The translations under genes were made by a program, and so were the position numbers. DNA of 64,000 bases, taken from Actinomycetota bacterium (GTDB lineage: Bacteria; Actinomycetota; Acidimicrobiia; Spongiisociales; UBA5794). The stretch's first letter is position 1; each line of letters starts with the position of its first letter. The stretch covers positions 2-64,001 of the forward strand of contig JAADIG010000052.1 in assembly GCA_013151445.1 (NCBI GenBank), given 5' to 3'. Below, piece after piece: positions 13,916 through 59,283 of this stretch. The notes beneath the pieces were generated by a model, which was given only the letters and a program-made list of their open reading frames with translations, was not told the origin of the DNA and searched no databases.

Positions 13916-15001
13916 ATGGAAGTGGGACACATGCAACCTCGACGATTTGTTCTTCTCGGCCTGGCCGTGGTCACGGCGCTGTCCGTAGCCGTACCGGCAA
14001 CCGCAACCGATGCGTTCACCGATGTGCCGGACACCAACGTATTCTCGGCTGATATTCAATGGTTGGAGGATGCCGGCATCACCCAGGGATGCAACCCGCC
14101 AGCCAACGACCGCTTCTGCCCAACGGAGAACGTCACCCGCGAGCAAATGGCCGCATTTCTCGTCCGCTCACTCGGCCTCACCGACAACGGCGGCGGAAAC
14201 ACCTTCACCGACGACGATGGCTCCGTGTTCGAGAACGACATCGCCAAACTCGCCGCCGCAGGAATCACCCAGGGATGCAACCCACCGACCAACGACCGCT
14301 TCTGCCCAACAGAGAACGTCACCCGCGAGCAAATGGCCGCATTCCTCCATCGCTCCCTTGATCCGGCACCAAACCAGGTGCAGGATCTCATCGTCACCCT
14401 GAGCGGAGGCAGCAATGAGATAGACGTCTCGTGGGAGCCAAACCCCGAAGCGGACATTGCCAGCTACAACGTGTGGTTCAGCGAACTGCCGGGTGGAGCG
14501 AAGGCAATCGTCCCCGAGCCGTACACGTTCGGTCCTGCGACGAGGACGTCGGGACGTTGGTACATCATCGACTGGCCACGGGCGCAAACGTCGGGAGAGA
14601 CCTGTTATCAGGTCAGCGCCGTCGATGCCTCTGGTCAAGAAAGCCCCCGATCGGTAGAGGAGTGTTTTGACTCCACACCTGGCGCACCAACTCAGGTCAT
14701 GGGCGTGACCGTCGGGTTGGGCGGCGGCAGCGGAGAAGTGTTTGTGTCGTGGGACCCGAATCCTGAGGGCGACATTGCTTCCTACAACGCCTATTTCAGC
14801 GAGTTTCCCGGGGGACCGTACACGTACGTCCCGGAACCGTACTTCTTCGGACCGGACACACTCATGTCGGGTCGGGTCTACTTCATCGATCAGCCACGGG
14901 AAGACACAGTCGGCAAGACGTGTTATATCATCACCGCCGTCGACCTGAATGAAAAAGAGGGACCTGCCTCGGTGGAAGGATGCTTCGACCCTGACGCGTA
15001 G
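13916..15001 (+). CDS. Secreted protein, 2 x SLH-like repeats + 2 x FN3-like repeats
   Basis: Signal peptide (start at 13916 or 13931). Two SLH-like repeats nearly identical at DNA level, then two ~100-aa Ig/FN3-like modules. Confidence 0.75.
   Translation: MEVGHMQPRRFVLLGLAVVTALSVAVPATATDAFTDVPDTNVFSADIQWLEDAGITQGCNPPANDRFCPTENVTREQMAAFLVRSLGLTDNGGGNTFTDDDGSVFENDIAKLAAAGITQGCNPPTNDRFCPTENVTREQMAAFLHRSLDPAPNQVQDLIVTLSGGSNEIDVSWEPNPEADIASYNVWFSELPGGAKAIVPEPYTFGPATRTSGRWYIIDWPRAQTSGETCYQVSAVDASGQESPRSVEECFDSTPGAPTQVMGVTVGLGGGSGEVFVSWDPNPEGDIASYNAYFSEFPGGPYTYVPEPYFFGPDTLMSGRVYFIDQPREDTVGKTCYIITAVDLNEKEGPASVEGCFDPDA
14012..14333 (+). repeat. Two tandem SLH-like repeat modules (near-identical at DNA level)
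   Basis: 14081-14160 versus 14262-14345 are almost identical (atcacccagggatgcaaccc...cgcgagcaaatggccgcattc). Confidence 0.7.
14371..14998 (+). repeat. Intragenic tandem duplication (~310 nt x 2) encoding FN3-like modules
   Basis: Protein repeats ...VSWEPNPEADIASYNVWFSELPGG... and ...VSWDPNPEGDIASYNAYFSEFPGG... Confidence 0.65.
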
Positions 15002-17062: not shown

Positions 17063-18211
17063 CTACTCGCCGCTTGGCTTGAGCTCGACAGTGATCGGCG
17101 TCCAGCCCGATCCGTTCACATCAACCCCAGCGGCCTTCAAGTTGTCGAGGGCTTCCTGGGCGATGTCGGTTCGGAATGCCCCGTCCGTCGGGGGTGCGGT
17201 GAGGATGCTCTCGGTGGTCGCGACTGAGACTGTCTGATCCCACAGACTCTTGTCGAGGAGACCGATACCGTTCGACGACGGCCAAATGAGACCGTTGATC
17301 TCGTTCATCTGCCACTTCTGATGCGACTCGCCGAGTGTTGGACCGGCTGCGAGCACGATGTCCACGCACTTGTCGACGTTGTCCCTACAGAATATCCAAC
17401 CCCGCATCGATGCTTCGACGAACTTCACCGCGTTAGCTCGATACTCGGGATCGGATTCGAGTTTGTCCGCATCCGCCCAGATGGCATCCTGGAGCATCGC
17501 GGTGCCGACGTCGTTCCAATTGATGACATTGAGATCATCGGCGGTGAACAGTTCACCAGTCTCCGGATTGGTTGTTTCGAGGACCTGTGCGTACTCGTTG
17601 TAGATCATTGCCTGGGCGGCATCGATTTCACCCGAGATGAGGGCCAGCATGTCGAACTGTTGCTGGACCAGCGTGACATCGGTGTCGGGATCGAGTCCTG
17701 CACTGCGCAATCCGGCGAGGAGCTCGAACTCGTTACCGAATCCCCAGTTACCGACCGTCTTACCGGCAAGATCGGCGACCGACGTTATGCCCTTGTCCTT
17801 GAATGAGACCTGGAGAGTCGCCGACCTCTCGAAGATCTGCGCGATGTTGGTGATGTTCAGGCCCTCTTCGCGAGGCACCAGGCCACGCGGAACCCACGAA
17901 ATCGCAAAGTCGGCGGCACCCGAATCCAAAACGGTTGCAGGCAGGATATCGATGCCACCCTGGGTGATCGTTACGTCGAGACCGAGATCCTTGTAAAACC
18001 CTTGGTCGACAGCGGCGTAATAGCCGGCGAACTGCGCCTGTGTGAACCACTGCAACTGCAACGTGATCGGTGTTAGTTCCTTCGCATCGCCACCACCATC
18101 AGCACCAGTCGTGGCCGTATCATCGGCACCACCACCGCACGCGGCGGCGATAAGCGCCATGGCAAGCACGAAACCGAACAGCCTCGCGTTGCCTTTCTTC
18201 CTCTTCGTCAT
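17063..18211 (-). CDS. ABC transporter substrate-binding lipoprotein (NMT1/THI5-like, NitT/TauT family)
   Basis: Lipobox LIAAAC and a NitT/TauT-type SBP fold. Confidence 0.85.
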   Translation of the reverse strand: MTKRKKGNARLFGFVLAMALIAAACGGGADDTATTGADGGGDAKELTPITLQLQWFTQAQFAGYYAAVDQGFYKDLGLDVTITQGGIDILPATVLDSGAADFAISWVPRGLVPREEGLNITNIAQIFERSATLQVSFKDKGITSVADLAGKTVGNWGFGNEFELLAGLRSAGLDPDTDVTLVQQQFDMLALISGEIDAAQAMIYNEYAQVLETTNPETGELFTADDLNVINWNDVGTAMLQDAIWADADKLESDPEYRANAVKFVEASMRGWIFCRDNVDKCVDIVLAAGPTLGESHQKWQMNEINGLIWPSSNGIGLLDKSLWDQTVSVATTESILTAPPTDGAFRTDIAQEALDNLKAAGVDVNGSGWTPITVELKPSGE

Positions 18212-18248
18212 AGACCCTCTCCTTGTCTAGTTTCCCTGGTCGGAACCC

Positions 18249-19034
18249 TTAACTGCCAGACCGCTCAATCTCCGTGACTCTCCATGGCATGAACCATCGT
18301 TCAAGACCAACCACGACGAGGTAAAGCGCCATCCCCATCAGCGTACCCGCGAGGACCCCGGCCCACGCAGATGAATAGCGTGACAGGGCGGCCTGCTGGA
18401 CAATCAGCTGGCCAAGCGCGGCCTGATCGCCACCGAAGTACTCGGCAACAATTGCTGCAATCACCGCAAGCGATGACGCGATCTTGAGTGAAGTAAAGAG
18501 GTATGGGAGTGCGTTGGGAATCCTGACCTCTTTGAGTGTCTCCCAGGTGCTCGCGGCGAACGATTCCATCAGATCGAGCTGGCCACGATGGACCTCCGTC
18601 AGTCCCCGCACTGAGTTCACAAACACCGGGAAGAACACCAAGAGGACAACGATGCCCTGGTTCGATCGTGGCGAACGAAGACCGAACCAGAAGTTAAAGA
18701 TTGGGGCGAGAGCGATTATGGGAATTGCGTTCACGGCCACTGCGAGCGGCGTCACCGCTTCGCTCACGATCTGGAACCGCGAGACAAGTATGGCAACCAT
18801 GATCCCGAGCAGCGCCCCCGCGATCAGACCAGTCACGGCAATGAACCCAGTGTTGGTGGTGGCCGTGATAATCGTGCTCCACTGCTCAACCACCTTGCCC
18901 GCAATAACGGAGGGACGCGGAAGAACGAAGGCCTTGGGGTTCAGCACGGTCAGCACCAACTCCCACAGGGCAAGACCGCCGACACCGACTACCAGTGGTG
19001 GGGCGATTGCGCGCAGCCTGGCATGGTTCGTCAT
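18249..19034 (-). CDS. ABC transporter permease (NitT/TauT family)
   Basis: Six-TM BPD-transporter pattern with an EAA-like loop. Stop/start overlaps with neighbours. Confidence 0.85.
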   Translation of the reverse strand: MTNHARLRAIAPPLVVGVGGLALWELVLTVLNPKAFVLPRPSVIAGKVVEQWSTIITATTNTGFIAVTGLIAGALLGIMVAILVSRFQIVSEAVTPLAVAVNAIPIIALAPIFNFWFGLRSPRSNQGIVVLLVFFPVFVNSVRGLTEVHRGQLDLMESFAASTWETLKEVRIPNALPYLFTSLKIASSLAVIAAIVAEYFGGDQAALGQLIVQQAALSRYSSAWAGVLAGTLMGMALYLVVVGLERWFMPWRVTEIERSGS

Positions 19035-19822
19035 GGCACCTCGACCGCTCGGAGAGCTTCGCGGACCTCGGTGATCTTGTTAAAGAACTCGGGGTCTTCG
19101 CGGGTACCGAACCCACGGGGTCCCAAATCCACATCGATGTCGGCGACTATACGGCCGGGTCGAGGCGACATCACGATCACACGTTGGGCGAGGAACACGG
19201 CTTCGGGGATTGAGTGTGTCACGAACACCACTGACGTTTGTGTGTCCTCCCATATCCGGAGGAGCTCGGCCTGCATATGCTCGCGGGTCATCTCGTCCAG
19301 CGCCCCAAAGGGTTCGTCCATCAGCAGAATCGAGGGCTTGAACGACAGGGCTCGCGCAATCGCGACTCGTTGCTGCATGCCGCCCGAGAGCTGGTTCGGA
19401 TAGTGATCGCCAAAGTCGCTGAGCTGGACAAGATCCAGCATCTCCGCACTACGTTTTGATCGTTGATCCTTGGACCAGCCGAGCAGTTCGAGTGGCAGTT
19501 CGATGTTCCTCGTTACGGTCCGCCAATCGAACAGGCTCGCACTCTGGAAGGCCATCCCGTAGTCCCGGTCGCGGCGAGCCTGATCGGCCGCCTTCCCATT
19601 CACAAATATCTCACCTTCTGTGGCGGGGACCAATCCGGCCATCAGACGGAGCAGGGTCGACTTGCCACAACCCGAGGGTCCGATCAGAGCAACAAACCCA
19701 CCCTGGCGGACCGACAGGTTGATACTTTCGAGAGCTACGACCTGATTCGGTTTGCCACGGCTGAAGATCTTGCTCGCTGCCCTTGCTTCGACGGCCACCG
19801 ATACGGGTGCGGAAGTGCTCAT
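19031..19822 (-). CDS. ABC transporter ATP-binding protein
   Basis: Walker A GPSGCGKST, LSGGMQQRVAIARAL signature and Walker B LLMDEPF. Confidence 0.9.
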   Translation of the reverse strand: MSTSAPVSVAVEARAASKIFSRGKPNQVVALESINLSVRQGGFVALIGPSGCGKSTLLRLMAGLVPATEGEIFVNGKAADQARRDRDYGMAFQSASLFDWRTVTRNIELPLELLGWSKDQRSKRSAEMLDLVQLSDFGDHYPNQLSGGMQQRVAIARALSFKPSILLMDEPFGALDEMTREHMQAELLRIWEDTQTSVVFVTHSIPEAVFLAQRVIVMSPRPGRIVADIDVDLGPRGFGTREDPEFFNKITEVREALRAVEVP

Positions 19823-20784
19823 ACGACTGGGTTCTCCTGCGCTCTTCCCCTAAGGGCGTAACGTTCGGCGATCGAGATGAGACCGAAAACGACAATGCCG
19901 AGCACAGCTGCACCGGCGACCGAGGCATAGAGACGTTCGGGACCCGTTGTGTACCGGGATGCGAAGTCGAGGATGAGACGACCGATGCCCCCACCGACAC
20001 CGGAAGAGATCTCGCCGACAATGGCACCGACAATGCTCGCTGATGCGGCGAGCTTCAATGCGGCAAAAAGGTACGGCACCGATGCGGGAAACCGCAGCTT
20101 AAGCAAGGTCTGCGTACGGCTCGCCGCATAGGAGTCCATGAGTTCGATCGATTCGGCGGACGGTGACTGAAGCCCCTTGAGCCCATTCACCGCGACTGGG
20201 AAAAAGGTGAGATAGGTCGCAATGATCGAAACCGACATCCACGCGTTCCACGTAAACGGCAGCCAGCCAAAGTTTGTTTGGCCCCAAATGACGATGATCG
20301 GCGCAATCGCGACCAGTGGGACTGTCTGAGACACTACGACATAGGGCATCAGTCCCCGCTCGATCGTCCGTGAACGCAACATAAGGATGGCCAGCGAGAG
20401 TCCGAGCACTATCCCGGCGACGAAACCAAAAAAGGCCTCACGTGCGGTGAACAGCGATGCCTCGAAGATGAACTGACCAAGCGTCTTGGCGTTTCGGCGC
20501 TGCGGTGGATCATCGAACTCGGATAGGATCGCCGAGATCGGCGGCATGATCAGATCATTGGTTGCTGGCATGACCGACCCAATCACCGGCCAGTCGCGTT
20601 GGGCATCATCGATCGACTGTCCCACGGCCTTGTACCCGCTGTACAGCAGACTCAGAGCGATAACGAAGGCCGCAAAAACCACGACCCTTCGTACGACGTT
20701 TCTCAGGCGAGCGCGGCGTTCGTAACGACGGATCTCGGCGCGCACTACAGCCGCGTCGACCCCTTCGTCCAGACTGTCCACCAC
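19819..20784 (-). CDS. ABC transporter permease (NitT/TauT family, second subunit)
   Basis: Polytopic membrane protein paralogous to 18249..19034. Confidence 0.85.
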   Translation of the reverse strand: MVDSLDEGVDAAVVRAEIRRYERRARLRNVVRRVVVFAAFVIALSLLYSGYKAVGQSIDDAQRDWPVIGSVMPATNDLIMPPISAILSEFDDPPQRRNAKTLGQFIFEASLFTAREAFFGFVAGIVLGLSLAILMLRSRTIERGLMPYVVVSQTVPLVAIAPIIVIWGQTNFGWLPFTWNAWMSVSIIATYLTFFPVAVNGLKGLQSPSAESIELMDSYAASRTQTLLKLRFPASVPYLFAALKLAASASIVGAIVGEISSGVGGGIGRLILDFASRYTTGPERLYASVAGAAVLGIVVFGLISIAERYALRGRAQENPVV

Positions 20785-20805
20785 TCGGTCCCTCCCTAGC
20801 GCCGA

Positions 20806-21807
20806 CTAACCATTGATTGCCGGGATGATCTCATCACCATAGGCGCGGAGAGTCTCCTCTTTGCCGTCGTGCTGGAGGTAGATCGAGAACTGGTCGACTC
20901 CCATATCCCGCAGCTCCCGGAGCCGAGCGATATGGTTTTCCACCGGGCCGAGAAGACAGAACCTGTCGATAAGGTCATCGCTCACGAAATCGACATGAGT
21001 GCTCTCGGAGCGACCGTGTTCCTGGTAGTCGTAACCCTTGCGCCCTTCAATGTAGGACGTGAGCTCGGCGGGGATGAGTGCAGTGTCGGTGCCGTATCGA
21101 CCGACGAGGTCCGCAACATGGTTACCGACCATGCCACCGAACCAGCGAACCTGGTCCCTCTGGTGTGCAATGTCATCGCCGACATAGGCGGGTGCCGCAA
21201 CGCACATGTAGAGGTCATCGGGGTTGCGTCCCGCGGATTCGGCAGCATCGCGCACCGCCTGAATCATGTACTTCGTCAGGTACGGATCGGCGAGCTGCAG
21301 GATGAATCCGTCTGCCTTCTGTCCGGTGAGAGCAAGCGTTTTCGGTCCGTACGCCGCCACGAGCATCGGGACTCGAGTTTTCTTCGCCCATGGGAACTGC
21401 ACCGTGACGCCGTTGTACTCGACTTCTTCACCCTGGGCCAGGGCCCTGATGATGTCGATTGACTCACCGAGCTCGGCAAGACGACAGGGTTTCTTGCCAA
21501 TCACCCGCAGCGCTGAGTCACCGCGACCCATGCCAATGACGGTCCGTTCTCCATACATCTCATTGAGCGTCGCAAAGAGGCTCGCGGTGACCGTGATGTC
21601 ACGTGTCCCCGGATTCGTAACCATCGGCCCAACGGTCATGTTTTGTGTTTTGGCGAGCATCTGTGAATAGATGACGAACGGCTCCTGCCAAAGGACGTGA
21701 CTGTCAAACGTCCATGCATAGTTGAAGCCCCTCTTCTCGGCCTCAACCGTCAGGTCGATGACGGCCTGCGCCGGTGGGTCGGTTTGAAAAACTACGCCAA
21801 AATCCAT
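20806..21807 (-). CDS. LLM-class (luciferase-like) flavin/F420-dependent oxidoreductase
   Basis: MDFGVVFQTD start and TIM-barrel LLM pattern. The start is chosen to avoid overlap with mmsA. Confidence 0.8.
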   Translation of the reverse strand: MDFGVVFQTDPPAQAVIDLTVEAEKRGFNYAWTFDSHVLWQEPFVIYSQMLAKTQNMTVGPMVTNPGTRDITVTASLFATLNEMYGERTVIGMGRGDSALRVIGKKPCRLAELGESIDIIRALAQGEEVEYNGVTVQFPWAKKTRVPMLVAAYGPKTLALTGQKADGFILQLADPYLTKYMIQAVRDAAESAGRNPDDLYMCVAAPAYVGDDIAHQRDQVRWFGGMVGNHVADLVGRYGTDTALIPAELTSYIEGRKGYDYQEHGRSESTHVDFVSDDLIDRFCLLGPVENHIARLRELRDMGVDQFSIYLQHDGKEETLRAYGDEIIPAING

Positions 21808-21818
21808 GCACTTGTCTC

Positions 21819-23306
21819 CTATTCGCTCTGTGGGAAACCGAGATCGATGGTGCTTGATGCAGGGTCGGGCCACCGACTCGTGATGACCTTCGCCTTGGTG
21901 TAGAAGTGGATCCCCTCCGGGCCGTACATGTGAGTGTCACCAAAGAGCGACTCCCCCCATCCGCCGAACGAGAATGATGCAACAGGCACCGGGATGGGAA
22001 CGTTGATGCCAACCATGCCAGCATCAACGTCAATCTGGAACTTGCGAGCAGCACCACCGTCACGGGTAAAGATCGCGGTGCCATTGCCCCAGGCATTCGT
22101 GTTGATCATCTCAAGCGCTTCGTCATAGGAGTCGACACGCACAACACCGAGCACGGGACCGAAGATCTCTTCGTCGTAACATTTCATGCCGGGTTTCACG
22201 TTGTCCAGCAGCGAAGGCGCCAGGAAGAAACCATCACCTTGGACTGGACTGTCACGGCCATCGACGAGCACGGTGGCACCCTCACCGGCGGCCTCAGCAA
22301 CATACGCCTCGACACGATCTCGATGTTCCCGGGTGATAAGCGGACCCATGCCCGACTCGGGGTCCGTTCCGGGACCAACCTTCACCTGCGGGATTCGCCT
22401 CTCGATGGCTTCAACCAGCGGGTCAGCGGCGGAACCGACAGCGACGACCACCGAGATTGCCATGCAACGCTCCCCCGCGGATCCATAACCTGCCGAAACT
22501 GCGGCGTCTGCCGCCACGTCAATATCGGCATCGGGCAGCACCACCATGTGGTTCTTCGCACCACCGAGCGCCTGAACACGTTTTCCACGGGCGGTGCCGG
22601 TCTCGTACACATATCGGGCGATCGGGGTTGAGCCGACAAAGCTGATTGCCTTCACCGTCGGATGCTCAAGCAGCCGATCGACTGCCACCTTGTCACCGTG
22701 GACGACGTTGAACACTCCCTCGGGAAGCCCGGCCTCATGAATCATCTCCGCAAGCAGCATCGTCACCGACGGGTCTTTCTCCGACGGTTTCAACACGAAG
22801 GTGTTCCCCGCCGCAATGGCGTTCGGGAACATCCACAGCGGGACCATGGCTGGGAAGTTAAACGGGGTGATACCAGCGACAACACCAAGGGGCTGGCGGA
22901 CCGTGTACACATCAACACCACGTGACGCCTGTTGCGTGAACTGACCCTGTAGCAGTTGGGCCGCGCCGCATGCGAACTCGATGTTCTCAAGTCCACGGGT
23001 GACCTCGCCCATCGCATCCGAGAGCACCTTGCCGTGTTCTGCGGTGAGCGCTGCGGCGATATCCGCCCGGTTCCGATGCGCTATCTCGCGAAACGCGAAC
23101 AGGACTGCGGTACGTTGGGCAAGTGACGTGTGCCGCCACGACTCGAAGGCCTTCGCAGCGGTGGAAACGGTGCGGTCTATTTCGTCAACCGTTGCGAGAG
23201 GCGTTGCCGCGGTCTGCTCTCCGGTGGCCGGGTTGTAGACCGGACTCGTGCGGTCCGATACCGACTCGACCATCTTCCCGCCAATGAAATGGGTAATTGT
23301 CTTCAC
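21819..23306 (-). CDS. mmsA: CoA-acylating methylmalonate-semialdehyde dehydrogenase
   Basis: VYNPATGE, GITPFNFPAMVPLWMFP and catalytic C in GSAGERCMA. GTG start with GAAAGGA upstream. The longer ORF N-terminus is out-of-frame shadow. Confidence 0.85.
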   Translation of the reverse strand: MKTITHFIGGKMVESVSDRTSPVYNPATGEQTAATPLATVDEIDRTVSTAAKAFESWRHTSLAQRTAVLFAFREIAHRNRADIAAALTAEHGKVLSDAMGEVTRGLENIEFACGAAQLLQGQFTQQASRGVDVYTVRQPLGVVAGITPFNFPAMVPLWMFPNAIAAGNTFVLKPSEKDPSVTMLLAEMIHEAGLPEGVFNVVHGDKVAVDRLLEHPTVKAISFVGSTPIARYVYETGTARGKRVQALGGAKNHMVVLPDADIDVAADAAVSAGYGSAGERCMAISVVVAVGSAADPLVEAIERRIPQVKVGPGTDPESGMGPLITREHRDRVEAYVAEAAGEGATVLVDGRDSPVQGDGFFLAPSLLDNVKPGMKCYDEEIFGPVLGVVRVDSYDEALEMINTNAWGNGTAIFTRDGGAARKFQIDVDAGMVGINVPIPVPVASFSFGGWGESLFGDTHMYGPEGIHFYTKAKVITSRWPDPASSTIDLGFPQSE

Positions 23307-23352
23307 CGAACTGTCCTTTCGAGGGTCACAGGCGTGTTCATCTGCACCGGTG

Positions 23353-24777
23353 TTAGTGAAGTCGAGCGGCGTTGCCGCGACGCAGATAGTTGCCGTCACC
23401 CTTGGCGCCAACGTACTCACCCGACACAACAATCGTCGCACCGCGTAACAACACCTGCTCAACCTTGCCCTGGACATCGAGCCCCTCATACGCTGAGTAG
23501 TCGACATTCATGTGATGTTGGGCGACGGACTTCGTCCAGGTTGCGCCCGGGTCGAAGATGACAATGTCAGCGTCGGAACCGACCGCAATGGTGCCCTTCT
23601 GCGGGTACAGACCGAACAGCTTTGCGGGTGTCGTGCAACACAATTCGATCCACCGATTCAGGTCAAGCCGCCCGTCGACGACCGCACCGTGGTACATCAG
23701 CTGGAATCGGTCCTCAACGCCGGGAAGTCCGTTCGGGATCGCGGTGAAGTCGCCCTCACCAAGACGCTTCTGGGTGCCAAGACTCGGATGATCCTCCATA
23801 CAGAACGGGCAATGGTCAGTTGAGACGACCTGGAGATCGTTGGTCGCCAAACCGGTCCATAGGGCATCCTGGTGACCATCGGCCTGGGCGCGAATCGGGG
23901 TTGAGCACACATATTTGGCCCCCTCGAAACCGGGCTTCGAGAGATGCTCCTCAAGACTGAGCCACAGATACTGTGGACAGGTCTCCGCAAAGACGGGTAG
24001 GCCGCGGTCACGGGCGGCAGCGACCTCAGCCAGCGCTTCTTTGGCCGACAGGTGCACGATGTACAGAGCGGCCCCCGCGAGTTCCGCAAGCGCGATCGCA
24101 CGGTGTGTCGCCTCTGCCTCGGTGATCGCTGGTCGGGTGATGCCGTGATACTTCGGGTCGGTCTCGCCACGCTCGATTGCCTGTTCGCGCAGGACGTCAA
24201 TAGCTATGCCGTTCTCGGCGTGCATCATGATCATGGCACCCGACTCGGCAGCCTTCTGCATGGCCCGCAGTATCTGCCCGTCGTCGGAGTACAAGACACC
24301 CGGATAGGCCATGAACAGCTTGAAACTTGTCACGCCTCGCTCGACGAGCGTGTCCATTTCCCCAAGCGTGTCGGCGTTGATATCACCTGCGATCATGTGG
24401 AACCCGTAGTCAATGGCGCAGTTCCCTGCGGCCTTCGCCATCCAACTGTCGAATCCCGCGATCATCGACTCGCCCTTCACCTGGACCGCAAAATCTACGA
24501 TGGTGGTCGTGCCACCCCATGCGGCGGCGCGGGTCCCCGTCTCGAAGTTGTCCGATGCCACCGTGCCCCCGAACGGAAGCTCCATGTGTGTGTGAACGTC
24601 GATCGAACCTGGTGTTACTAGCTTGCCAGTTGCGTCGATAACCGAATCCACACTCGATTCGAAGTCATGCGACCCTGGCGCAAGGACGGCAACAATCTTT
24701 TCTCCGTCAATGAGCACATCGGCCTTAACCGTGTCAATGGCGGTGACCACAGTCCCGCCTTTGATGAGTGTTTTCAT
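23353..24777 (-). CDS. Dihydropyrimidinase / D-hydantoinase
   Basis: MKTLIKGGTVV...DVHTHMELPF cyclic amidohydrolase signature. Strong SD GGAGGAAAAC before the ATG. Confidence 0.85.
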   Translation of the reverse strand: MKTLIKGGTVVTAIDTVKADVLIDGEKIVAVLAPGSHDFESSVDSVIDATGKLVTPGSIDVHTHMELPFGGTVASDNFETGTRAAAWGGTTTIVDFAVQVKGESMIAGFDSWMAKAAGNCAIDYGFHMIAGDINADTLGEMDTLVERGVTSFKLFMAYPGVLYSDDGQILRAMQKAAESGAMIMMHAENGIAIDVLREQAIERGETDPKYHGITRPAITEAEATHRAIALAELAGAALYIVHLSAKEALAEVAAARDRGLPVFAETCPQYLWLSLEEHLSKPGFEGAKYVCSTPIRAQADGHQDALWTGLATNDLQVVSTDHCPFCMEDHPSLGTQKRLGEGDFTAIPNGLPGVEDRFQLMYHGAVVDGRLDLNRWIELCCTTPAKLFGLYPQKGTIAVGSDADIVIFDPGATWTKSVAQHHMNVDYSAYEGLDVQGKVEQVLLRGATIVVSGEYVGAKGDGNYLRRGNAARLH

Positions 24778-24799
24778 GTTTTCCTCCAGGTCGTACAGG

Positions 24800-26095
24800 T
24801 TAAGTCTGGTCCACTTCTCGAATAGCGTCGACAAGCGTGGACGCACCAACGTCCATCTCGTCATCGGTGATGCTGAGCGGTGGGGCGATACGGAGTACAT
24901 TGCCGTACAACCCCCCTTTGCCGATGAGCATGCCACGATCCTTGCATGCCTCGAGCAGCGCTGCGGACTTTCCGGGATCCGGTCGGTTCGAATCGACCTC
25001 TACAGTCTCGATGGCGAGCATCAGTCCCTTGCCTCGCAGTTCGGCGATCCATTCGGTCTCGTTTACGACCGGTTCGAGAACTCGACGCAGCCGTTCCCCC
25101 TGCTTGAGACTATTGCCCTGGAGATCGTTGTCTATCAGGTAGTCAAGGTTCGCCAGCGCTCCAGCCGATACGAGGGGGTTGCCGCCGAACGTCGAGATCG
25201 AATTTGCACCCATGGAATCCATGATCTCCGCGGTCGTGACGACGCCGCCAAGGGCGAGTCCGTTTCCGACACCCTTTGCGAACGTCATGATGTCGGGGGT
25301 CATGTTGTGCGCCTGGTAGCCCCACATGTGCTCACCCGTGCGACCCCAGCCAGTCTGAACCTCGTCGGAAATGAATAGGATTCCGTAGCGGTCGAGCACC
25401 TTTTTGAACTCGCCGAAAAAGCCGTCGGGGGGTGTGGCGAATCCACCGACACCCTGGATCGGTTCGGCAATCATGCATGCCACCGTACCCGAGGTCATCA
25501 TGTCGATCACCTGCTCAAGGTCCTCGACACACGCCGCGGTGTAGGCGGCGTCATCAAAATCACGGAAGGGACTCCGCAGCCGATACGGGCCCTGCACAAA
25601 ATTGACCTTCAAGCCGGAGTAGCTGGTCGGTGACCAGGACCGGTGGCTCGTAAGCGACACCGCCGTGAACGATCGGCCGTGATAGCTGTTCCGAATAGCT
25701 AGAACCTCGTTGGAGCCGCGAAACGATGTTGCCAAAAGAATCGCGGCATCATTCGCTTCGGTACCCGACGGCGTAAAGAACACTCGAGCGTCGGGGATAC
25801 CGGACATCTCGGCAATCCGCTCGGCGAGCGTCACCATCTCGTCGGAGAGATAGAGGGTCGACGTATGAAGCATCTTCCCGGCCTGCTCTCTGATCGCCGC
25901 GACGACCTCGGGCACGTTGTAGCCGGTCATCGTGGTGAGGATGCCGCCGAAGAAATCCAGATACTTGTTCCCCTCCAGGTCCCAGACATGGCGCCCTTCA
26001 CCGTGGGAGATCCCGATCGGCTCGTCGTAGTAGAGAGCGAGCCACGATGGCATGACCGCCTTGTGTCGAGCAAGCAACTCGGCGTGTGTCGTCAT
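24800..26095 (-). CDS. Class-III (omega) aminotransferase, probable beta-alanine/aminoisobutyrate transaminase
   Basis: PLP AT-III fold (…SGTEANDAA…DEVQTGWGRTG…). Confidence 0.85.
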   Translation of the reverse strand: MTTHAELLARHKAVMPSWLALYYDEPIGISHGEGRHVWDLEGNKYLDFFGGILTTMTGYNVPEVVAAIREQAGKMLHTSTLYLSDEMVTLAERIAEMSGIPDARVFFTPSGTEANDAAILLATSFRGSNEVLAIRNSYHGRSFTAVSLTSHRSWSPTSYSGLKVNFVQGPYRLRSPFRDFDDAAYTAACVEDLEQVIDMMTSGTVACMIAEPIQGVGGFATPPDGFFGEFKKVLDRYGILFISDEVQTGWGRTGEHMWGYQAHNMTPDIMTFAKGVGNGLALGGVVTTAEIMDSMGANSISTFGGNPLVSAGALANLDYLIDNDLQGNSLKQGERLRRVLEPVVNETEWIAELRGKGLMLAIETVEVDSNRPDPGKSAALLEACKDRGMLIGKGGLYGNVLRIAPPLSITDDEMDVGASTLVDAIREVDQT

Positions 26096-26097
26096 GG

Positions 26098-26940
26098 TTA
26101 CCCCTCGGTGAGTGACCCGTAGGCGTCGGGGCGCCGGTCACGATAGAACGCCCACTGGTTGCGGGTCTCCTCGATCAGGTCCATATCGAGGTCCCGCACC
26201 ACGAGCTCGGCCGCCTGATCGGAAGCCGTGCCTTCCACGAACTGTCCACGGGGGTTCGCAAAATACGATGTCCCGTAGAAATCGTTGTCCCCGAGCGGTT
26301 CGATGCCTACCCGATTGATTGCACCCACGTAGTACATGTTCGCCGCGGCCGATGCTGTCTGCTCAAGTTGCCAGAGGTACGAGGACAGGCCGCGGCTCGT
26401 CGCCGATGGGTTGAACACGATCTCTGCGCCCGCAAGCCCAAGGGCTCGCCATCCTTCCGGGAAATGGCGGTCGTAACAAATGTAGACACCGACCTTGCCA
26501 ACGGCGGTTTCGAAGATGGGATAACCGAGGTTCCCAGGACGGAAGTAGAACTTTTCCCAGAATCCCTTGACCTGGGGAATGTGCGTCTTGCGATACTTGC
26601 CGAGGTAGGTGCCATCGGCGTCGATCACGGCGGCGGTGTTGTAGAGAAACCCCGGCTTTTCGAGCTCGTACATTGGCAACACGAGCACCATGTTGAGCTC
26701 CTTGGCGAGAGCCTGGAATCGTTTTGTAATCGGACCATCCGGGATCGCTTCGGCGTACCCGTAGTACTCGGTGTCCTGCACCTGGCAGAAGTATGGACCG
26801 TAAAACAGCTCCTGAAAACACATTACCTGGGCGCCGTCAGCAGCGGCATCGCGGGCGTACTGTTCGTGAAGATCGATCATGGACTCTTTGTCACCGGTCC
26901 ACTCGGTTTGCAGGATTGCTGCGCGTACGACTCTGCTCAT
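26098..26940 (-). CDS. Carbon-nitrogen hydrolase (beta-ureidopropionase / N-carbamoyl-amino-acid amidohydrolase-like)
   Basis: Nitrilase-superfamily E-K-C context (…CFQELF…YRKTH…VYICYDRHFPE). Confidence 0.8.
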   Translation of the reverse strand: MSRVVRAAILQTEWTGDKESMIDLHEQYARDAAADGAQVMCFQELFYGPYFCQVQDTEYYGYAEAIPDGPITKRFQALAKELNMVLVLPMYELEKPGFLYNTAAVIDADGTYLGKYRKTHIPQVKGFWEKFYFRPGNLGYPIFETAVGKVGVYICYDRHFPEGWRALGLAGAEIVFNPSATSRGLSSYLWQLEQTASAAANMYYVGAINRVGIEPLGDNDFYGTSYFANPRGQFVEGTASDQAAELVVRDLDMDLIEETRNQWAFYRDRRPDAYGSLTEG

Positions 26941-27059
26941 TTGCTCCATCCCATTCCGTGAGACACACATCGGCGACCGACCACCCGTCGGCTTGCACCG
27001 ACTATATGCACCAGACTACGTTGACACAACTAACTCTTTGTTACACACAAAAGACCTTC
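26941..27059. promoter_or_regulatory. Divergent promoter/operator region between catabolic operon and MocR regulator
   Basis: Three ACACA-core motifs (gtgagACACACatc, gttgACACAActa, tgttACACACaaa). Confidence 0.3.
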
Positions 27060-28391
27060 ATGATCGTACATCTGGCAGCCTCCACCACCGACCGCACCGC
27101 TCACGGTATCGCCCAGGCGATAGGATCCCTCGTCGCCGACGGAACCGTGAGTGTTGGTGAGCGGCTCCCGACCGTTCGCGAGGTGGCCAGGGTCATGGGA
27201 GTGAGCCCGACCACTGTGTCCGAAGCATGGCAGACCCTGCAACGCCATGGGATTATCGAGACTCAACGCCGACGCGGGACGTTTGTGTCGGAAAGGTCGG
27301 GGGCGATGGCGTCGCGTTTCTGGCAGGTACCGGTCGCCCGCGGTCGTTACGAGATTGACCTTTCCACCGGTACACCCGATCCGGACCTCCTCCCCGACCC
27401 GGCGGCTTTCTTTGGCGCGATGGGTCGTGCCCCTCGTATGACCTCGTACCTGGATCGCCCGGTTCTCGTCGGTCTCGAGGAACAGCTTCGCAGTACGTGG
27501 CCGTTCGATCCCGAATACATCACGGTTGTAAACGGGGCACTTGATGCTCTCGATAGGGTCATCGCGACCGCGATCCCGTTTGCCAGCAAGGTGATCGTTT
27601 CGGATCCGACATTCCCCCCGATCCTCGACATGCTGGACCTCGTCGGGGCGACGGCGATCGGCGTGGCGATCGACGAGGAAGGCCTCGACCCTGGCGCCGT
27701 TGCAGAGGCTCTCCACAGGAACGATGTTGCGGCAATCATTGTTCAACCCCGGGCGCATAACCCAACCGGCGCTTCATGGTCACGTACTCGCACGGCCGAA
27801 CTCGCCAGCGTCCTGGGGCCAACGTCACTCGTTATCGTCGAAGACGACCATTCGGGCCCCGTGTCTGGTGCCGAACTCCACAGCCTGGGAACATACCTCC
27901 CCGGTCGTGTCACCCACATTCGAAGTTTTTCCAAGTCACATGGGCCCGACTTCCGTCTCGCCGCCATCGGTGGCCCCGCAGACCCGGTCATGAGTCTCAT
28001 CCGGCGCCGCCGTCTCGGCCCTTCCTGGACGAGTCGGTTGCTCCAGCAGCTGTTGCTCGACATGCTCCGATCTCCCAAGGTCGGCGCGGAGGTGGAACAT
28101 GCAGCTCAGATTTATCGGCAGCGGTGGGTCACAATGTATGACTCGCTCTCGGAACGTGGCGTGTCGGTACGAACCGGGAGCGGGCTCAATATGTGGGTGC
28201 CGGTACGCGACGAGACCGTCGCAACAGTTTCGCTCGCTGCCAACGGGATCGGCGTTGCACCGGGTCGCCCGTTTTGTATCGCGGCCGGCGGCGCCCCCCA
28301 CGTGCGGATCACGACAAGCGTGATCGCAACCGAGCCTTCGGTCGTTGCGAACAAGATTGCTGACGCTGCGCTGCTCGATCCGCGGGCATGA
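27060..28391 (+). CDS. MocR-type GntR regulator (HTH + PLP aminotransferase-like domain)
   Basis: N-terminal HTH (LPTVREVARVMGVSPTTVSEAWQTLQRHGII) followed by a fold-type-I aminotransferase-like domain. Confidence 0.8.
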   Translation: MIVHLAASTTDRTAHGIAQAIGSLVADGTVSVGERLPTVREVARVMGVSPTTVSEAWQTLQRHGIIETQRRRGTFVSERSGAMASRFWQVPVARGRYEIDLSTGTPDPDLLPDPAAFFGAMGRAPRMTSYLDRPVLVGLEEQLRSTWPFDPEYITVVNGALDALDRVIATAIPFASKVIVSDPTFPPILDMLDLVGATAIGVAIDEEGLDPGAVAEALHRNDVAAIIVQPRAHNPTGASWSRTRTAELASVLGPTSLVIVEDDHSGPVSGAELHSLGTYLPGRVTHIRSFSKSHGPDFRLAAIGGPADPVMSLIRRRRLGPSWTSRLLQQLLLDMLRSPKVGAEVEHAAQIYRQRWVTMYDSLSERGVSVRTGSGLNMWVPVRDETVATVSLAANGIGVAPGRPFCIAAGGAPHVRITTSVIATEPSVVANKIADAALLDPRA

Positions 28392-28522
28392 CCGGACGAT
28401 CCCCGGCTGCTCGCTTCAGGTAAGAATCCATTTGGCCGATACTGATGCCAGGCCACGGATCGGTAACTCCCCGCCGGATCCGGGCTGCACACGAGACCGC
28501 CGACGCAGGACATCACGACCCC

Positions 28523-57626: not shown

Positions 57627-58598
57627 GTGACCATTCTGGAGCCGACGGCGAATAATCGCAATCTATCCCTAGTTGCACTCTGCGGAGGCGTCGGTGGTGC
57701 GCGCCTCGTGAGGGCCCTTGACAGGCTGCTCCCGACAGCCTCGATTACCGCCATTGTGAACGTCGGTGACGACGAGAAACGCTACGGAGTGCACGTCGCA
57801 GCCGATATCGACACCGTGCTCTACACGCTGTCTGACATCGTTGGACCCCAGGGCTGGGGCATCGACGGCGATACAACGACCATGATGACCACACTGAACA
57901 AACTCGGTGTAGATACGGCGTTTCACCTGGGCGATCGCGACTTCGCCCACTGCCTGTGGCGCACCAACCGACTCTCAGAAGGATCTTCTCTCTCTGCAAC
58001 AACAACGCATTTGGCCACCACGCTCGGAGTTCGGCCAAAGGTGCTCCCCGCTACTGATGACCCAGTCGCGACTGCAGTACAGATTGCTGATGGCTCCTGG
58101 CTTACGTTCCAGGAGTACTTTGTGGAACGAGGACATCGCGACGAGGTGCGAACACTCCGATACGACGGGGCTGACGTTGCCACCGCGGCACCGGGAGTCA
58201 TCGATGCAATCGCGAACGCCGACGCGGTCATCATCGCACCATCAAACCCTCCCCTCTCCATCTGGCCAATCTTGGCGATTCCTGGCATCAGACACTCCCT
58301 CGAAACCCACGACCGCGTCATCGCCGTGAGCCCACTGTTTTCGGGGACAGCGCTCAAGGGACCCGCCCGGCAGGTACTCGAATCGCTGGGCCTTGGAAGT
58401 GGAACCGCAAGCATCTTGGCTGCCTACGATGCCCTGATCGACTATCTCATCATCGACGCCGGTGACTCGGCCGACACACAGTTGTCCAATGCCAGAACCG
58501 TCGTGGAGGCAGTCGACACCCGGCTCACGCCCGTAGATCGGGCGCAGGACCTGGTGGCAACTATCACACGCCTGATAGGAGAAACCAATGCGAATTGA
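57627..58598 (+). CDS. cofD: 2-phospho-L-lactate transferase
   Basis: LCGGVGGARL motif. AAGGAG SD 8 nt before a GTG start. Confidence 0.8.
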   Translation: MTILEPTANNRNLSLVALCGGVGGARLVRALDRLLPTASITAIVNVGDDEKRYGVHVAADIDTVLYTLSDIVGPQGWGIDGDTTTMMTTLNKLGVDTAFHLGDRDFAHCLWRTNRLSEGSSLSATTTHLATTLGVRPKVLPATDDPVATAVQIADGSWLTFQEYFVERGHRDEVRTLRYDGADVATAAPGVIDAIANADAVIIAPSNPPLSIWPILAIPGIRHSLETHDRVIAVSPLFSGTALKGPARQVLESLGLGSGTASILAAYDALIDYLIIDAGDSADTQLSNARTVVEAVDTRLTPVDRAQDLVATITRLIGETNAN

Positions 58599-59283
58599 AG
58601 TGTGGAGCGTCTCAGGTATCGGAGAGGTTTATCCCACCGACGACGTCGCCCAACATATCATCGACGCTATTGCCGTTACCCCGGAAGGTCTCGTTGCCGG
58701 CGACATCGTCGTGGTGACCCACAAAATCGTCTCCAAGGCCGAGGGGGAGATCCGATCTGCCGCGACAGACGACGAGTATCGCCGGATCATCGAATCCGAG
58801 GCCGCAGAGATTATCCGCCGCCGTGGACCGCTAGTAATCACCCAGACGCACCATGGTTTTATCTGCGCCAATGCCGGGGTTGACCGGTCAAATGTCGAAG
58901 GCGACAACGTCGTTCTCCTTCCAAGACGGCCGGACAGGTCTGCCCATCTCATCCGCATGCGGCTCGAACAGGCTTTTGGCTGTGCGATTGGTGTATTGAT
59001 CACCGACACCTTCGGCCGACCGTGGCGTCGCGGACTGACCGACGTAGCCATCGGATGTTCGGGGGTGCTATCTGTCGTCGACCTCAAGGGCAGCCATGAC
59101 ATGCAGGGACGCGTCTTGGAGGTGTCCGAGGTGGCAGTAATCGACGAGATTGCCGCAGCCGCAGACCTTGTGATGGGCAAAGCAAGCGGCAACCCGGTTG
59201 CCGTCGTGCGAGGACTAGACCTGGCCGGAAACGGTCGCGCCAGCGACCTCGTCCGCCCCGCTGCGGAGGACATGTTTCGGTGA
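58588..59283 (+). CDS. cofE: Coenzyme F420-0:L-glutamate ligase (stand-alone CofE, no nitroreductase domain)
   Basis: 231 aa with a CANAGVDRSN-type motif. Stop is followed directly by fpg. Confidence 0.85.
   Translation: MRIEVWSVSGIGEVYPTDDVAQHIIDAIAVTPEGLVAGDIVVVTHKIVSKAEGEIRSAATDDEYRRIIESEAAEIIRRRGPLVITQTHHGFICANAGVDRSNVEGDNVVLLPRRPDRSAHLIRMRLEQAFGCAIGVLITDTFGRPWRRGLTDVAIGCSGVLSVVDLKGSHDMQGRVLEVSEVAVIDEIAAAADLVMGKASGNPVAVVRGLDLAGNGRASDLVRPAAEDMFR

What the first reader, a model, noticed from the sequence alone, without database searches (positions are those of the whole stretch)
17063..26940. Ten-gene reductive pyrimidine/beta-alanine catabolic operon lacking dihydropyrimidine dehydrogenase but containing an LLM-family oxidoreductase
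- Gene order on the minus strand is as follows.
  - Beta-ureidopropionase-like CN-hydrolase.
  - Omega-aminotransferase.
  - Dihydropyrimidinase.
  - mmsA.
  - LLM (luciferase-like, probably F420/FMN-dependent) oxidoreductase.
  - A complete NitT/TauT ABC importer: two permeases, ATPase and lipoprotein SBP.
- Start/stop overlaps indicate one transcript, and a MocR regulator is divergent.
- All steps from dihydrouracil or dihydrothymine to (methyl)malonyl-CoA derivatives are present.
- There is no PydA/PreT-PreA-type dihydropyrimidine dehydrogenase.
- The embedded LLM enzyme is a candidate for an alternative pyrimidine-ring reductase. RutA, the pyrimidine monooxygenase of the Rut pathway, is also LLM-family. 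cofD and cofE in the window show the organism makes F420.
Basis: inference. Interest (0 to 1): 0.55.

Follow-up and report, generated by a model that had tools for sequence, protein, structure and literature searches.

The report
Pyrimidine-breakdown operon with F420 reductase
This is a nine-gene operon for importing and breaking down uracil and thymine in which the usual first enzyme is missing and a conserved, uncharacterised F420-type enzyme sits in its place, so that enzyme is probably an unrecognised kind of uracil reductase, although no assay has shown it.

Summary
On the minus strand, 26940 to 17063, lie a carbamoyl-amidase-type CN-hydrolase, a class-III aminotransferase, dihydropyrimidinase, CoA-acylating (methyl)malonate-semialdehyde dehydrogenase, an LLM oxidoreductase and a four-gene ABC importer. 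A MocR regulator is divergent.

The LLM is a full-length member of TIGR03842. Its closest solved relative is the F420-dependent reductase Mer, not RutA.

The genome (98% complete) has no PreA/PydA-type dihydropyrimidine dehydrogenase. Its only extra DHODH-like gene lies in a separate orotate-type cluster.

In 401 sampled genomes of the phylum:
- 82 carry the LLM.
- 81 of these carry dihydropyrimidinase, 70 within 10 kb of the LLM.
- 79 carry cofD.
- PreA is found in only 2.

Gene order is shuffled between lineages, and some clusters are reduced to LLM, dihydropyrimidinase and carbamoylase.

Best reading (about 0.6): the LLM reduces uracil and thymine with F420H2, as a non-homologous replacement for PydA. 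This rests on comparative genomics only; no biochemistry exists.

No paper in the searchable library describes this. The scan itself has already reported the same pairing on other DNA (101 notes in at least 96 genomes), so this window is one more member of a recurrent, still untested candidate.

The parts
27060..28391 (+). MocR-family regulator (GntR HTH plus class I/II aminotransferase fold), divergent from the operon
   Evidence: Pfam GntR plus Aminotran_1_2. The best NCBIfam models are MocR-like, all below their cut-offs. The start ATG at 27060 was read from the sequence.
26971..27059 (.). Divergent control region. It holds GACACAA-N9-TTGTTAC at 27023-27045, a variant of a motif conserved upstream of orthologous MocR/CN-hydrolase pairs.
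   Evidence: Sequence. A GACAAT-N8/9-(T)TGTTAC-like element is seen by eye in about 10 of 13 orthologous intergenic regions. It has not been tested statistically.
26098..26940 (-). CN-hydrolase, probable N-carbamoyl-beta-alanine amidohydrolase (the PydC role). An alternative start lies at 26970.
   Evidence: Pfam CN_hydrolase, 216 bits. Nearest solved structures are N-carbamoylputrescine amidase (2e-57), Drosophila beta-alanine synthase (5e-53) and human beta-ureidopropionase (6e-50). It scores below the AguB cut-off. The substrate is inferred from context.
24800..26095 (-). Class-III (omega) aminotransferase, probable beta-alanine / beta-aminoisobutyrate aminotransferase (the PydD role)
   Evidence: Pfam Aminotran_3, 300 bits. 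NCBIfam hits are GabT/ArgD-like and below their cut-offs. PDB hits include PuuE, 7e-61. The substrate is inferred from context.
23353..24777 (-). Dihydropyrimidinase (PydB)
   Evidence: TIGR02033 equivalog, 566 bits against a cut-off of 393. PDB 3sfw dihydropyrimidinase, 3e-149.
21819..23306 (-). CoA-acylating malonate/methylmalonate-semialdehyde dehydrogenase (MSDH/MmsA)
   Evidence: TIGR01722, 712 bits against a cut-off of 448. Start GTG at 23306 with an AAAGGA ribosome-binding site.
20806..21807 (-). TIGR03842-family LLM oxidoreductase, candidate F420H2-dependent uracil/thymine reductase
   Evidence: TIGR03842, 558 bits against a cut-off of 295, covering model positions 1-329. Start ATG at 21807 with an AGGAGA site. 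AF2 model pLDDT 92. Nearest structures are Mer, TM about 0.8.
19819..20784 (-). ABC permease 1 (BPD_transp_1, NitT/TauT-like)
   Evidence: Pfam. Weak NCBIfam hits to SaoP, NtrB, TauC and SsuC.
19031..19822 (-). ABC ATPase. Its ends overlap both permease genes by 4 bp.
   Evidence: Pfam ABC_tran. The best NCBIfam hits are TauB/SaoA-like. Coordinates.
18249..19034 (-). ABC permease 2 (BPD_transp_1)
   Evidence: Pfam.
17063..18211 (-). NMT1/THI5-type lipoprotein substrate-binding protein, probable pyrimidine-binding component
   Evidence: Pfam NMT1, 126 bits. Nearest solved structures are 4nmy (9e-16) and the formylaminopyrimidine-binding ThiY 3ix1 (4.5e-12). The N-terminus has a signal peptide with Cys. 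The ligand is inferred.
57673..59283 (+). cofD and cofE, F420 biosynthesis genes. They are context for the cofactor, not part of the operon.
   Evidence: TIGR01819, 253 bits, just under its cut-off of 257. Pfam CofD and F420_ligase. cofH lies elsewhere in the genome, 487 bits.

Best explanation
The region is a MocR-controlled operon for uptake and reductive catabolism of uracil and thymine.

Proposed steps:
1. A NitT/TauT-type ABC importer with a ThiY-like binding protein brings in the base.
2. The TIGR03842 LLM enzyme transfers a hydride from F420H2 to the C5=C6 bond, giving dihydrouracil or dihydrothymine. This step is inferred.
3. Dihydropyrimidinase opens the ring.
4. The CN-hydrolase releases beta-alanine or beta-aminoisobutyrate, plus CO2 and NH3.
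5. The class-III aminotransferase makes malonate or methylmalonate semialdehyde.
6. The CoA-acylating dehydrogenase gives acetyl-CoA or propionyl-CoA.

On this reading the LLM is a non-homologous, F420-dependent stand-in for dihydropyrimidine dehydrogenase (PydA). What is shown: the family assignments, the gene order, the missing PydA and the conserved linkage. What is inferred: the substrates of the LLM, the CN-hydrolase, the aminotransferase and the transporter, and the use of F420.
For: 1. Pathway hole. In the own genome (98% complete), the DHO_dh domain that all known PydA variants carry occurs only twice. One copy is the carB-pyrD-pyrF gene. The other is a PyrK/PyrD pair that sits with a type II dihydroorotase, an OPRTase-like gene and an M20 amidase.

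2. Phylum sample of 401 genomes.
- TIGR03842 is in 82.
- 81 of these also have TIGR02033 dihydropyrimidinase, and 70 have it within 10 kb on the same contig (my tabulation).
- PreA is in only 2 of 401, and in none of the LLM-positive genomes.

3. Gene neighbourhoods.
- Of 20 LLM loci from 14 families, 17 hold dihydropyrimidinase within 10 kb of the LLM and 16 of those also hold a carbamoylase. Gene orders differ and include bare trios. In some lineages an M20 amidase replaces the CN-hydrolase while the LLM stays.
- Of 80 named loci (Acidimicrobiia, Streptomyces, Kribbella, Rhodococcus, Actinoplanes and others), 74 have dihydropyrimidinase and 71 have the CN-hydrolase within 8 kb.
- A homologue only 42% identical still overlaps a CN-hydrolase gene by 4 bp.

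4. Converse. In 20 dihydropyrimidinase loci from genomes without the LLM, none has a carbamoylase, MMSDH or this transporter beside it. Recurring neighbours are purine-pathway families.

5. Other DHO_dh genes. 8 of 10 diverse LLM-positive genomes have a single strong DHO_dh hit, far from the cluster.

6. Cofactor.
- 79 of 82 LLM-positive genomes have cofD, against 168 of 319 others.
- The own genome has cofD, cofE and cofH.
- Every PDB sequence hit is an F420 enzyme, and Mer is best at 8e-32.
- The AF2 model (pLDDT 92) matches Mer at TM about 0.8.

7. Active site, mapped through the alignment onto jMer residues described in bioRxiv 10.1101/2023.09.18.558202.
- The cis-peptide loop under F420 is kept, within an invariant VTNP.
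- Asp96, which contacts the pyrimidine ring of the pterin in Mer, is the invariant Asp97 here.
- The position-178 carboxamide is Gln171 here.
- The catalytic Glu6 is Val here, and is never acidic in the alignment.

8. Chemical precedent. A putative F420/FMN oxidoreductase reduces C5-C6 of the uracil moiety in mureidomycin, shown by genetics and NMR but not in vitro (PMC10714638).
Against: - There is no biochemical or genetic test of any TIGR03842 member. All support is guilt by association, and related genomes are not independent samples.
- 12 of 82 LLM genes are not within 10 kb of dihydropyrimidinase. Several of these are on fragmented assemblies. Three are 12 to 17 kb away and two are 50 to 57 kb away.
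- Three LLM-positive genomes gave no cofD at E<=1e-40 (G127, G193, G351).
- The own genome has no Fno or Fgd above cut-off, so the source of F420H2 is open.
- F420 use itself is inferred from homology and phyletic pattern.
- A PyrK/PyrD pair exists elsewhere in this genome.
Confidence: 0.6

Rival explanations
1. The operon is a pyrimidine or beta-alanine catabolic operon, but the LLM does a different redox job. Examples are interconverting malonate semialdehyde and 3-hydroxypropionate like PydE, acting on another intermediate, or recycling F420. Ring reduction would then be done by an unidentified enzyme elsewhere, or the cell would take up already reduced dihydropyrimidines.
For: The LLM's substrate is unknown. 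F420-dependent LLMs include alcohol and sugar dehydrogenases (Adf, Fgd, fHMAD). In this window the LLM sits right after the semialdehyde dehydrogenase gene.
Against: The LLM's tightest partners are dihydropyrimidinase and the carbamoylase. Trios without an aminotransferase or MMSDH exist (L039, L044, and 4 of the 80 named loci), and in those no semialdehyde is formed by the cluster. MMSDH already covers the semialdehyde step here. No alternative reductase recurs in the clusters.
Confidence: 0.18
2. The cluster degrades some other cyclic ureide, not uracil or thymine. Candidates are a substituted or modified pyrimidine, or a hydantoin-like compound. The LLM would reduce that other ring, and the dihydropyrimidinase and CN-hydrolase would act as hydantoinase and carbamoylase.
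For: TIGR02033 enzymes are also D-hydantoinases (PDB hits 1yny, 4kqn). The CN-hydrolase scores below every NCBIfam cut-off, and its best structural relative is N-carbamoylputrescine amidase. The transporter's ligand is unknown.
Against: The CN-hydrolase is much closer to beta-ureidopropionases (5e-53, 6e-50) than to D-carbamoylases (about 1e-27). The omega-aminotransferase and CoA-acylating MMSDH fit beta-alanine and beta-aminoisobutyrate. Hydantoin hydrolysis needs no reductase. The binding protein is related to a pyrimidine-binding protein.
Confidence: 0.12
3. In this genome the first step is done by the second PyrK/PyrD (class 1B DHODH-like) pair on contig C43, acting as a PydA-like uracil reductase. 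The LLM would be unrelated to ring reduction.
For: The uracil-reducing domain of PydA is DHO_dh-type (PMC7332683). The genome has an extra PyrK/PyrD pair in a catabolic-looking cluster with an M20 amidase, an ABC transporter and an IclR regulator.
Against: That pair scores above the cut-off of the dihydroorotate dehydrogenase model (327 against 269 bits) and far below PreA (129 against 335). It sits with a type II dihydroorotase (TIGR00856, 349 against 293 bits) and an OPRTase-like gene, which points to an orotate/dihydroorotate/carbamoyl-aspartate route. It is on another contig. 8 of 10 other LLM-positive genomes lack a second strong DHO_dh gene.
Confidence: 0.05

Closest known systems
Reductive pyrimidine degradation (Pyd) gene clusters: PydA, PydB, PydC, PydD and PydE or MSDH, as summarised in PMC7332683
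   Same: The pathway logic and gene content match from dihydropyrimidinase onward: PydB, a carbamoyl-beta-alanine amidase, a beta-alanine aminotransferase and MSDH. The clusters are also operon-like.
   Different: No PydA of any known type is present (NADPH-type, PreT/PreA, or ferredoxin-type PydAc). All of those reduce uracil at an FMN site in a DHO_dh-type domain. Here an LLM (TIM-barrel, F420-type) gene takes the place, and a dedicated NitT/TauT ABC importer and a MocR regulator are attached.
F420-dependent methylene-tetrahydromethanopterin reductase Mer (PDB 8qpl, 1z69, 1f07)
   Same: It is the closest solved relative (E 8e-32, 24-27% identity, TM about 0.8). It shares the LLM barrel, the VTNP loop under F420, the Asp that contacts a pyrimidine ring, and the carboxamide at position C.
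   Different: The catalytic Glu6 of Mer is Val here. The Mer models score far below their cut-offs (137 against 276 bits; 123 against 349). The genomic context is pyrimidine catabolism in aerobic Actinomycetota, not C1 metabolism.
SSGG-03002 / NpsU, a putative F420/FMN oxidoreductase that reduces the uracil ring of mureidomycins and napsamycins (PMC10714638)
   Same: The proposed chemistry is the same: reduction of C5=C6 of a uracil ring by a putative deazaflavin/flavin oxidoreductase in Actinomycetota.
   Different: It acts on a uridyl-peptide antibiotic in a biosynthetic cluster. Its sequence relationship to TIGR03842 was not tested here. It too lacks an in vitro assay.
Putative F420-dependent luciferase-family 'yanthine reductase' in Chloroflexota uricolytic clusters (PMC12507026)
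   Same: This is the same kind of inference: an LLM/F420 gene standing where a DHO_dh-type or YgfK-type ring reductase is found in other lineages, next to a cyclic amidohydrolase.
   Different: It belongs to the purine (uric acid) reductive pathway, not the Pyd pathway. It is bioinformatic only, and its relationship to TIGR03842 was not tested here.
RutA, the FMN-dependent pyrimidine monooxygenase of the Rut pathway
   Same: It belongs to the same broad LLM superfamily and has a pyrimidine substrate.
   Different: RutA is an oxygenase that cleaves the ring with FMNH2 and O2. No RutA model appears among the NCBIfam hits, no Rut partners are present, and every close structure is an F420 enzyme.

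Membership tests
TIGR03842 (F420_CPS_4043) LLM class F420-dependent oxidoreductase | Whole-protein score above NCBIfam's curated cut-off, over the full model length | tested here: met
   558.2 bits against a cut-off of 295.45, covering model positions 1-329 of 329. The same result came from the genome search.
F420-dependent branch of the luciferase-like (LLM) superfamily | LLM TIM-barrel fold whose nearest relatives are F420 enzymes, with the loop after beta3 that backs the deazaflavin | tested here: met
   Pfam Bac_luciferase. AF2 model pLDDT 92. The top 17 Foldseek hits are all F420 enzymes. V63-T64-N65-P66 is invariant and aligns with the G61-V62-T63-N64-P65 loop of jMer.
F420-dependent branch of the luciferase-like (LLM) superfamily | Actual binding and use of F420 | not testable with these tools
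   The evidence is indirect only. cofD is present in 79 of 82 LLM-positive genomes against 168 of 319 others. The own genome has cofD, cofE and cofH.
Mer (5,10-methylene-H4MPT reductase) | Score above the Mer model cut-offs, and the catalytic Glu at the end of beta1 (Glu6 in jMer) | tested here: not met
   NF002619 scores 137 bits (cut-off 276) and TIGR03555 scores 123 (cut-off 349). Position 6 is Val, and no sequence in alignment A2 has an acidic residue there.
PydA / PreT-PreA / PydAc dihydropyrimidine dehydrogenase | FMN-binding DHO_dh-type catalytic domain with flanking Fe-S ferredoxin domains | tested here: not met
   The LLM has only a Bac_luciferase domain. The genome has no PreA-level hit. 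If the LLM reduces uracil, it works like PydA but is not a member.
Pyd pathway cluster | PydB dihydropyrimidinase | tested here: met
   TIGR02033, 566 bits against a cut-off of 393. PDB 3sfw, 3e-149.
Pyd pathway cluster | PydC beta-ureidopropionase | tested here: inconclusive
   The CN-hydrolase lies in the carbamoyl-amidase clade. It is closest to N-carbamoylputrescine amidase and next to beta-alanine synthases. It is below all NCBIfam cut-offs. Its substrate is inferred from conserved adjacency.
Pyd pathway cluster | PydD beta-alanine aminotransferase and MSDH | tested here: inconclusive
   MSDH is met (TIGR01722, 712 against 448 bits). The aminotransferase is class III and GabT/PuuE-like, but is below all equivalog cut-offs.
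RutA pyrimidine monooxygenase | Match to the RutA model, and Rut operon partners (RutB-G) | tested here: not met
   No RutA model appears among the 25 NCBIfam families hit at E<=0.001. The neighbouring genes are Pyd-type, not Rut-type.
MocR subfamily of GntR regulators | N-terminal GntR winged helix fused to a fold-type I aminotransferase-like domain | tested here: met
   Pfam GntR (residues 104-165 of the long ORF) plus Aminotran_1_2 (188-508). The best NCBIfam models are MocR-like, PtsJ and EhuR, below their cut-offs.

The most novel reading that the evidence does not exclude
TIGR03842 proteins are true F420H2:uracil/thymine oxidoreductases, a fourth and non-homologous type of dihydropyrimidine dehydrogenase. 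They would carry out the first step of pyrimidine catabolism in most Actinomycetota that have the pathway, including Streptomyces, Rhodococcus, Kribbella and Acidimicrobiia. That would give coenzyme F420 a role in central nucleobase catabolism.
Probability: 0.6. Interest if true: 0.7.

Novelty: new variant of a known kind. Interest (0 to 1): 0.6.

Why it matters
- All dihydropyrimidine dehydrogenases described so far reduce uracil at an FMN site in a DHO_dh-type domain (PMC7332683). An LLM/F420 enzyme doing the same job would be a clear case of non-orthologous replacement.
- It would fill a pathway hole that affects genome annotation of a whole phylum. In my sample, 117 of 401 genomes have a dihydropyrimidinase and only 2 have PreA.
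- It would add a housekeeping function to coenzyme F420 in aerobic Actinomycetota, where most F420 enzymes are still orphans.
- It is directly testable with one enzyme assay and one knockout in a model actinomycete.
- For this particular window the gain is modest. It is a complete, well-preserved example with importer, regulator and all downstream steps, from a vent-associated Acidimicrobiia-like genome, of a pairing that recurs widely.

Tried and rejected
- Literature. Nine full-text searches found no paper linking an F420/LLM enzyme to the Pyd pathway. Terms included F420 with dihydropyrimidinase, dihydropyrimidine dehydrogenase, dihydrouracil and reductive pyrimidine; TIGR03842; and luciferase-like with dihydropyrimidinase. 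Subscription journals are not covered. The TIGRFAMs/F420 paper I tried by PMC id is not held.
- Expression. No RNA holder was listed for the operon. The DNA holders are hydrothermal-vent metagenomes.
- Promoters and terminators. The sigma-70 scan gave 0 sites, and terminator-like sites were at chance level. This is uninformative for this phylum.
- Repeats. The repeat finder found no significant repeat in the control region. The motif I report was seen only by comparing orthologous regions by eye.
- Distant homologues. P0125 lies on a 2-kb contig with no neighbours. P0140 (39% identity) lies in a different context, with a 446-aa LLM, an isochorismatase and an amidase, so the functional boundary of the family is near 40% identity.
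- RutA analogy. Rejected as evidence, as set out in the membership test.
- C43 PyrK/PyrD as the missing dehydrogenase. Considered and judged unlikely, as set out under the rivals.
- Pirellulaceae-labelled locus L106. It is not evidence for spread to another phylum. Its bin has no cofD, and its LLM nests inside Acidimicrobiia in the tree, so the contig is probably mis-binned.
- ORF calling. My crude ORF calling in GC-rich loci produced some spurious long ORFs. Only the Pfam tallies were used from it.

Full report
**What is there**

ORF listing and family scans confirm nine co-directional genes on the minus strand:
- CN-hydrolase, 26098-26940 (alternative start 26970).
- Class-III aminotransferase, 24800-26095.
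- Dihydropyrimidinase, 23353-24777 (TIGR02033, 566 bits, cut-off 393).
- CoA-acylating (methyl)malonate-semialdehyde dehydrogenase, 21819-23306 (TIGR01722, 712 bits, cut-off 448).
- LLM oxidoreductase, 20806-21807.
- ABC importer in the order permease, ATPase, permease, NMT1/THI5-type lipoprotein, 19819-20784, 19031-19822, 18249-19034 and 17063-18211.

A MocR regulator (27060-28391) is divergent. I fixed the likely starts from the sequence. The junctions are 2, 22, 46, 11, 21, -4, -4 and 37 bp. No terminator-like site above chance lies inside. One transcript is therefore plausible but not shown.

The transporter gene order differs. Only two junctions are true overlaps. The decarboxylating MMSDH yields acetyl-CoA and propionyl-CoA, not (methyl)malonyl-CoA.

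**The LLM**

It is a full-length member of TIGR03842 (558 bits, cut-off 295). Homologues are abundant and highly conserved, at 67-70% identity between Acidimicrobiia and Actinomycetes. By sequence, every solved relative is an F420 enzyme, and Mer is best at 8e-32. A confident AlphaFold model (pLDDT 92) matches Mer at TM about 0.8, followed by Fgd, Adf and fHMAD.

I mapped residues through the HMMER alignment onto the jMer residues analysed in bioRxiv 10.1101/2023.09.18.558202:
- The loop that backs the deazaflavin is kept, within an invariant VTNP.
- The Asp that contacts the pyrimidine ring of the pterin in Mer is the invariant Asp97 here.
- The carboxamide at position C is Gln171.
- Mer's catalytic Glu6 is Val, and is never acidic in the family alignment.

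The protein therefore looks like an F420 enzyme with different chemistry on a substrate that may still present a pyrimidine ring. That last point is inference. RutA is not a close relative.

**Is the first enzyme really missing?**

In the own genome (3.07 Mb, 98% complete) the DHO_dh domain occurs twice.
- One copy is the biosynthetic pyrD between carB and pyrF.
- The other is a PyrK/PyrD pair on contig C43. It sits with an OPRTase-like gene, an M20 amidase, a type II dihydroorotase (TIGR00856, 349 bits, cut-off 293), a Bmp-type ABC transporter and an IclR regulator.

The C43 cluster reads as an orotate, dihydroorotate and carbamoyl-aspartate route, not as a uracil reductase. No PreA-level match exists.

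**Comparative genomics**

In 401 genomes sampled across the phylum:
- TIGR03842 is in 82.
- Dihydropyrimidinase is in 117.
- PreA is in 2.
- cofD is in 247.

Of the 82 LLM-positive genomes, 81 have dihydropyrimidinase, and in 70 it lies within 10 kb on the same contig. 79 of the 82 have cofD, against 168 of 319 other genomes. Within families where the trait is patchy, the two genes come and go together. In family f27, 9 genomes have the LLM and 10 have dihydropyrimidinase, out of 22.

These tallies include genomes flagged as unpublished:
- G318 and G088 are positive for the LLM, dihydropyrimidinase and cofD.
- G120 has dihydropyrimidinase and cofD but no LLM.
- G001, G048 and G336 have cofD only.

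Leaving them out changes each count by at most three. No fetched locus that I analysed comes from them.

I fetched 20 LLM loci from 14 families. Of these, 17 hold dihydropyrimidinase within 10 kb of the LLM, and 16 of those also hold a carbamoylase. Gene orders are rearranged and include bare trios. In some lineages an M20 amidase replaces the CN-hydrolase while the LLM remains. Among 80 named loci from a scan of species genomes, 74 have dihydropyrimidinase and 71 have the CN-hydrolase within 8 kb. The window's full architecture recurs.

The converse also holds. In 20 dihydropyrimidinase loci from genomes without the LLM, none has a carbamoylase, MMSDH or this transporter nearby. Their recurring neighbours are diaminopropionate-lyase-like, carbamoyltransferase, carbamate-kinase, YqeC and xanthine-dehydrogenase families. 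This matches the reductive purine pathway of PMC12507026.

Eight of ten diverse LLM-positive genomes have only one strong DHO_dh gene, far from the cluster. A tree of the LLM sequences follows taxonomy and places the window's copy among Acidimicrobiia.

**Interpretation**

The simplest account is that TIGR03842 supplies the ring reduction, using F420H2 as hydride donor. F420H2 is an obligate hydride carrier. There is genetic precedent for a putative F420/FMN oxidoreductase reducing C5=C6 of a uracil moiety in mureidomycin biosynthesis (PMC10714638). The same authors who defined the PydA variants have proposed, on context alone, an F420 luciferase-family reductase in a purine pathway (PMC12507026).

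The binding protein's nearest solved relatives include the pyrimidine-binding ThiY. The CN-hydrolase is closer to beta-alanine synthases than to D-carbamoylases. Both fit uracil and thymine as substrates, though only weakly.

Rivals remain open because nothing has been assayed:
- Another role for the LLM.
- Another heterocycle as the true substrate.
- The C43 PyrK/PyrD pair as the reductase in this genome.

Further caveats:
- 12 of 82 LLM genes are not closely linked to dihydropyrimidinase.
- Three LLM-positive genomes lack a strong cofD hit.
- This genome has no Fno or Fgd above cut-off, so the source of F420H2 is unknown.

**Novelty**

I found no paper in the searchable library that assigns this function. 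Known PydA types are all DHO_dh/FMN-based (PMC7332683). The scan itself has noted the same pairing 101 times in at least 96 genomes, and earlier follow-ups reached the same reading. Those notes are not independent evidence, and I re-derived the argument here on my own sample.

This window is a complete and typical member of that recurrent cluster. I rate it a new variant of a known kind of system, of moderate to good interest, and decidable by one enzyme assay and one knockout.

Noticed in passing
G000 contig C43, about 4000-14850 (locus L003): A second catabolic-looking cluster. Gene order: IclR regulator, OPRTase-like gene, PyrK-like, class 1B PyrD-like, M20 hydantoinase/carbamoylase-family amidase, type II dihydroorotase, two BPD_transp_2 permeases, Bmp-type binding protein, double ABC ATPase. 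It reads as an orotate to dihydroorotate to carbamoyl-aspartate to aspartate route with its own importer.
   Followed up: partly
window 27023-27045, and orthologous MocR/CN-hydrolase intergenic regions in L078, L090, L111, L114, L135, L146, L148, L150, L155: A GACAAT-N8/9-(T)TGTTAC-like element recurs between the divergent MocR and CN-hydrolase genes in Acidimicrobiia and Micromonosporaceae. The window has GACACAA-N9-TTGTTAC. It is a candidate MocR operator. It was seen by eye only.
   Followed up: partly
loci L058-L077 (dihydropyrimidinase loci of genomes without the LLM): Some of the dihydropyrimidinase homologues in genomes without the LLM sit beside PALP, OTCase, carbamate kinase, YqeC, SsnA-like amidohydrolase and xanthine-dehydrogenase genes. 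That is the reductive uric acid pathway context, so TIGR02033 hits there are probably HyuA-type enzymes, not PydB.
   Followed up: partly
whole genome G000: F420 biosynthesis genes are present: cofD and cofE in the window, and cofH with a cofG-like neighbour on C136. No Fno (npdG) and no Fgd reach their cut-offs. Twelve other LLM-like matches exist. How F420 is reduced in this organism is open.
   Followed up: partly
window 57216-60171: The longest cofD ORF is 460 aa, but the CofD domain starts at residue 153, so the true start is probably further downstream. cofE is a stand-alone 231-aa ligase without an FbiB-type C-terminal domain and is followed directly by an Fpg/Nei DNA glycosylase gene.
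   Followed up: no
L106 (contig labelled Pirellulaceae MAG): This is the only hit outside Actinomycetota among the best 80 loci. Its LLM nests inside Acidimicrobiia in the tree, and the bin has no cofD. The contig is probably mis-binned rather than a transfer.
   Followed up: partly
contig of P0140 (no DNA held), genes at 1646-6759: A homologue at 39% identity lies next to a 446-aa LLM, an isochorismatase-family gene and an amidase. This is a different, Rut-like nitrogen-heterocycle context, and it marks the edge of the Pyd-linked family.
   Followed up: no
window 13883-15001 and 28445-31048: SLH-domain proteins flank the operon. One carries polysaccharide-lyase-14 and beta-helix domains. SLH anchoring is notable for an Acidimicrobiia-like genome.
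   Followed up: no
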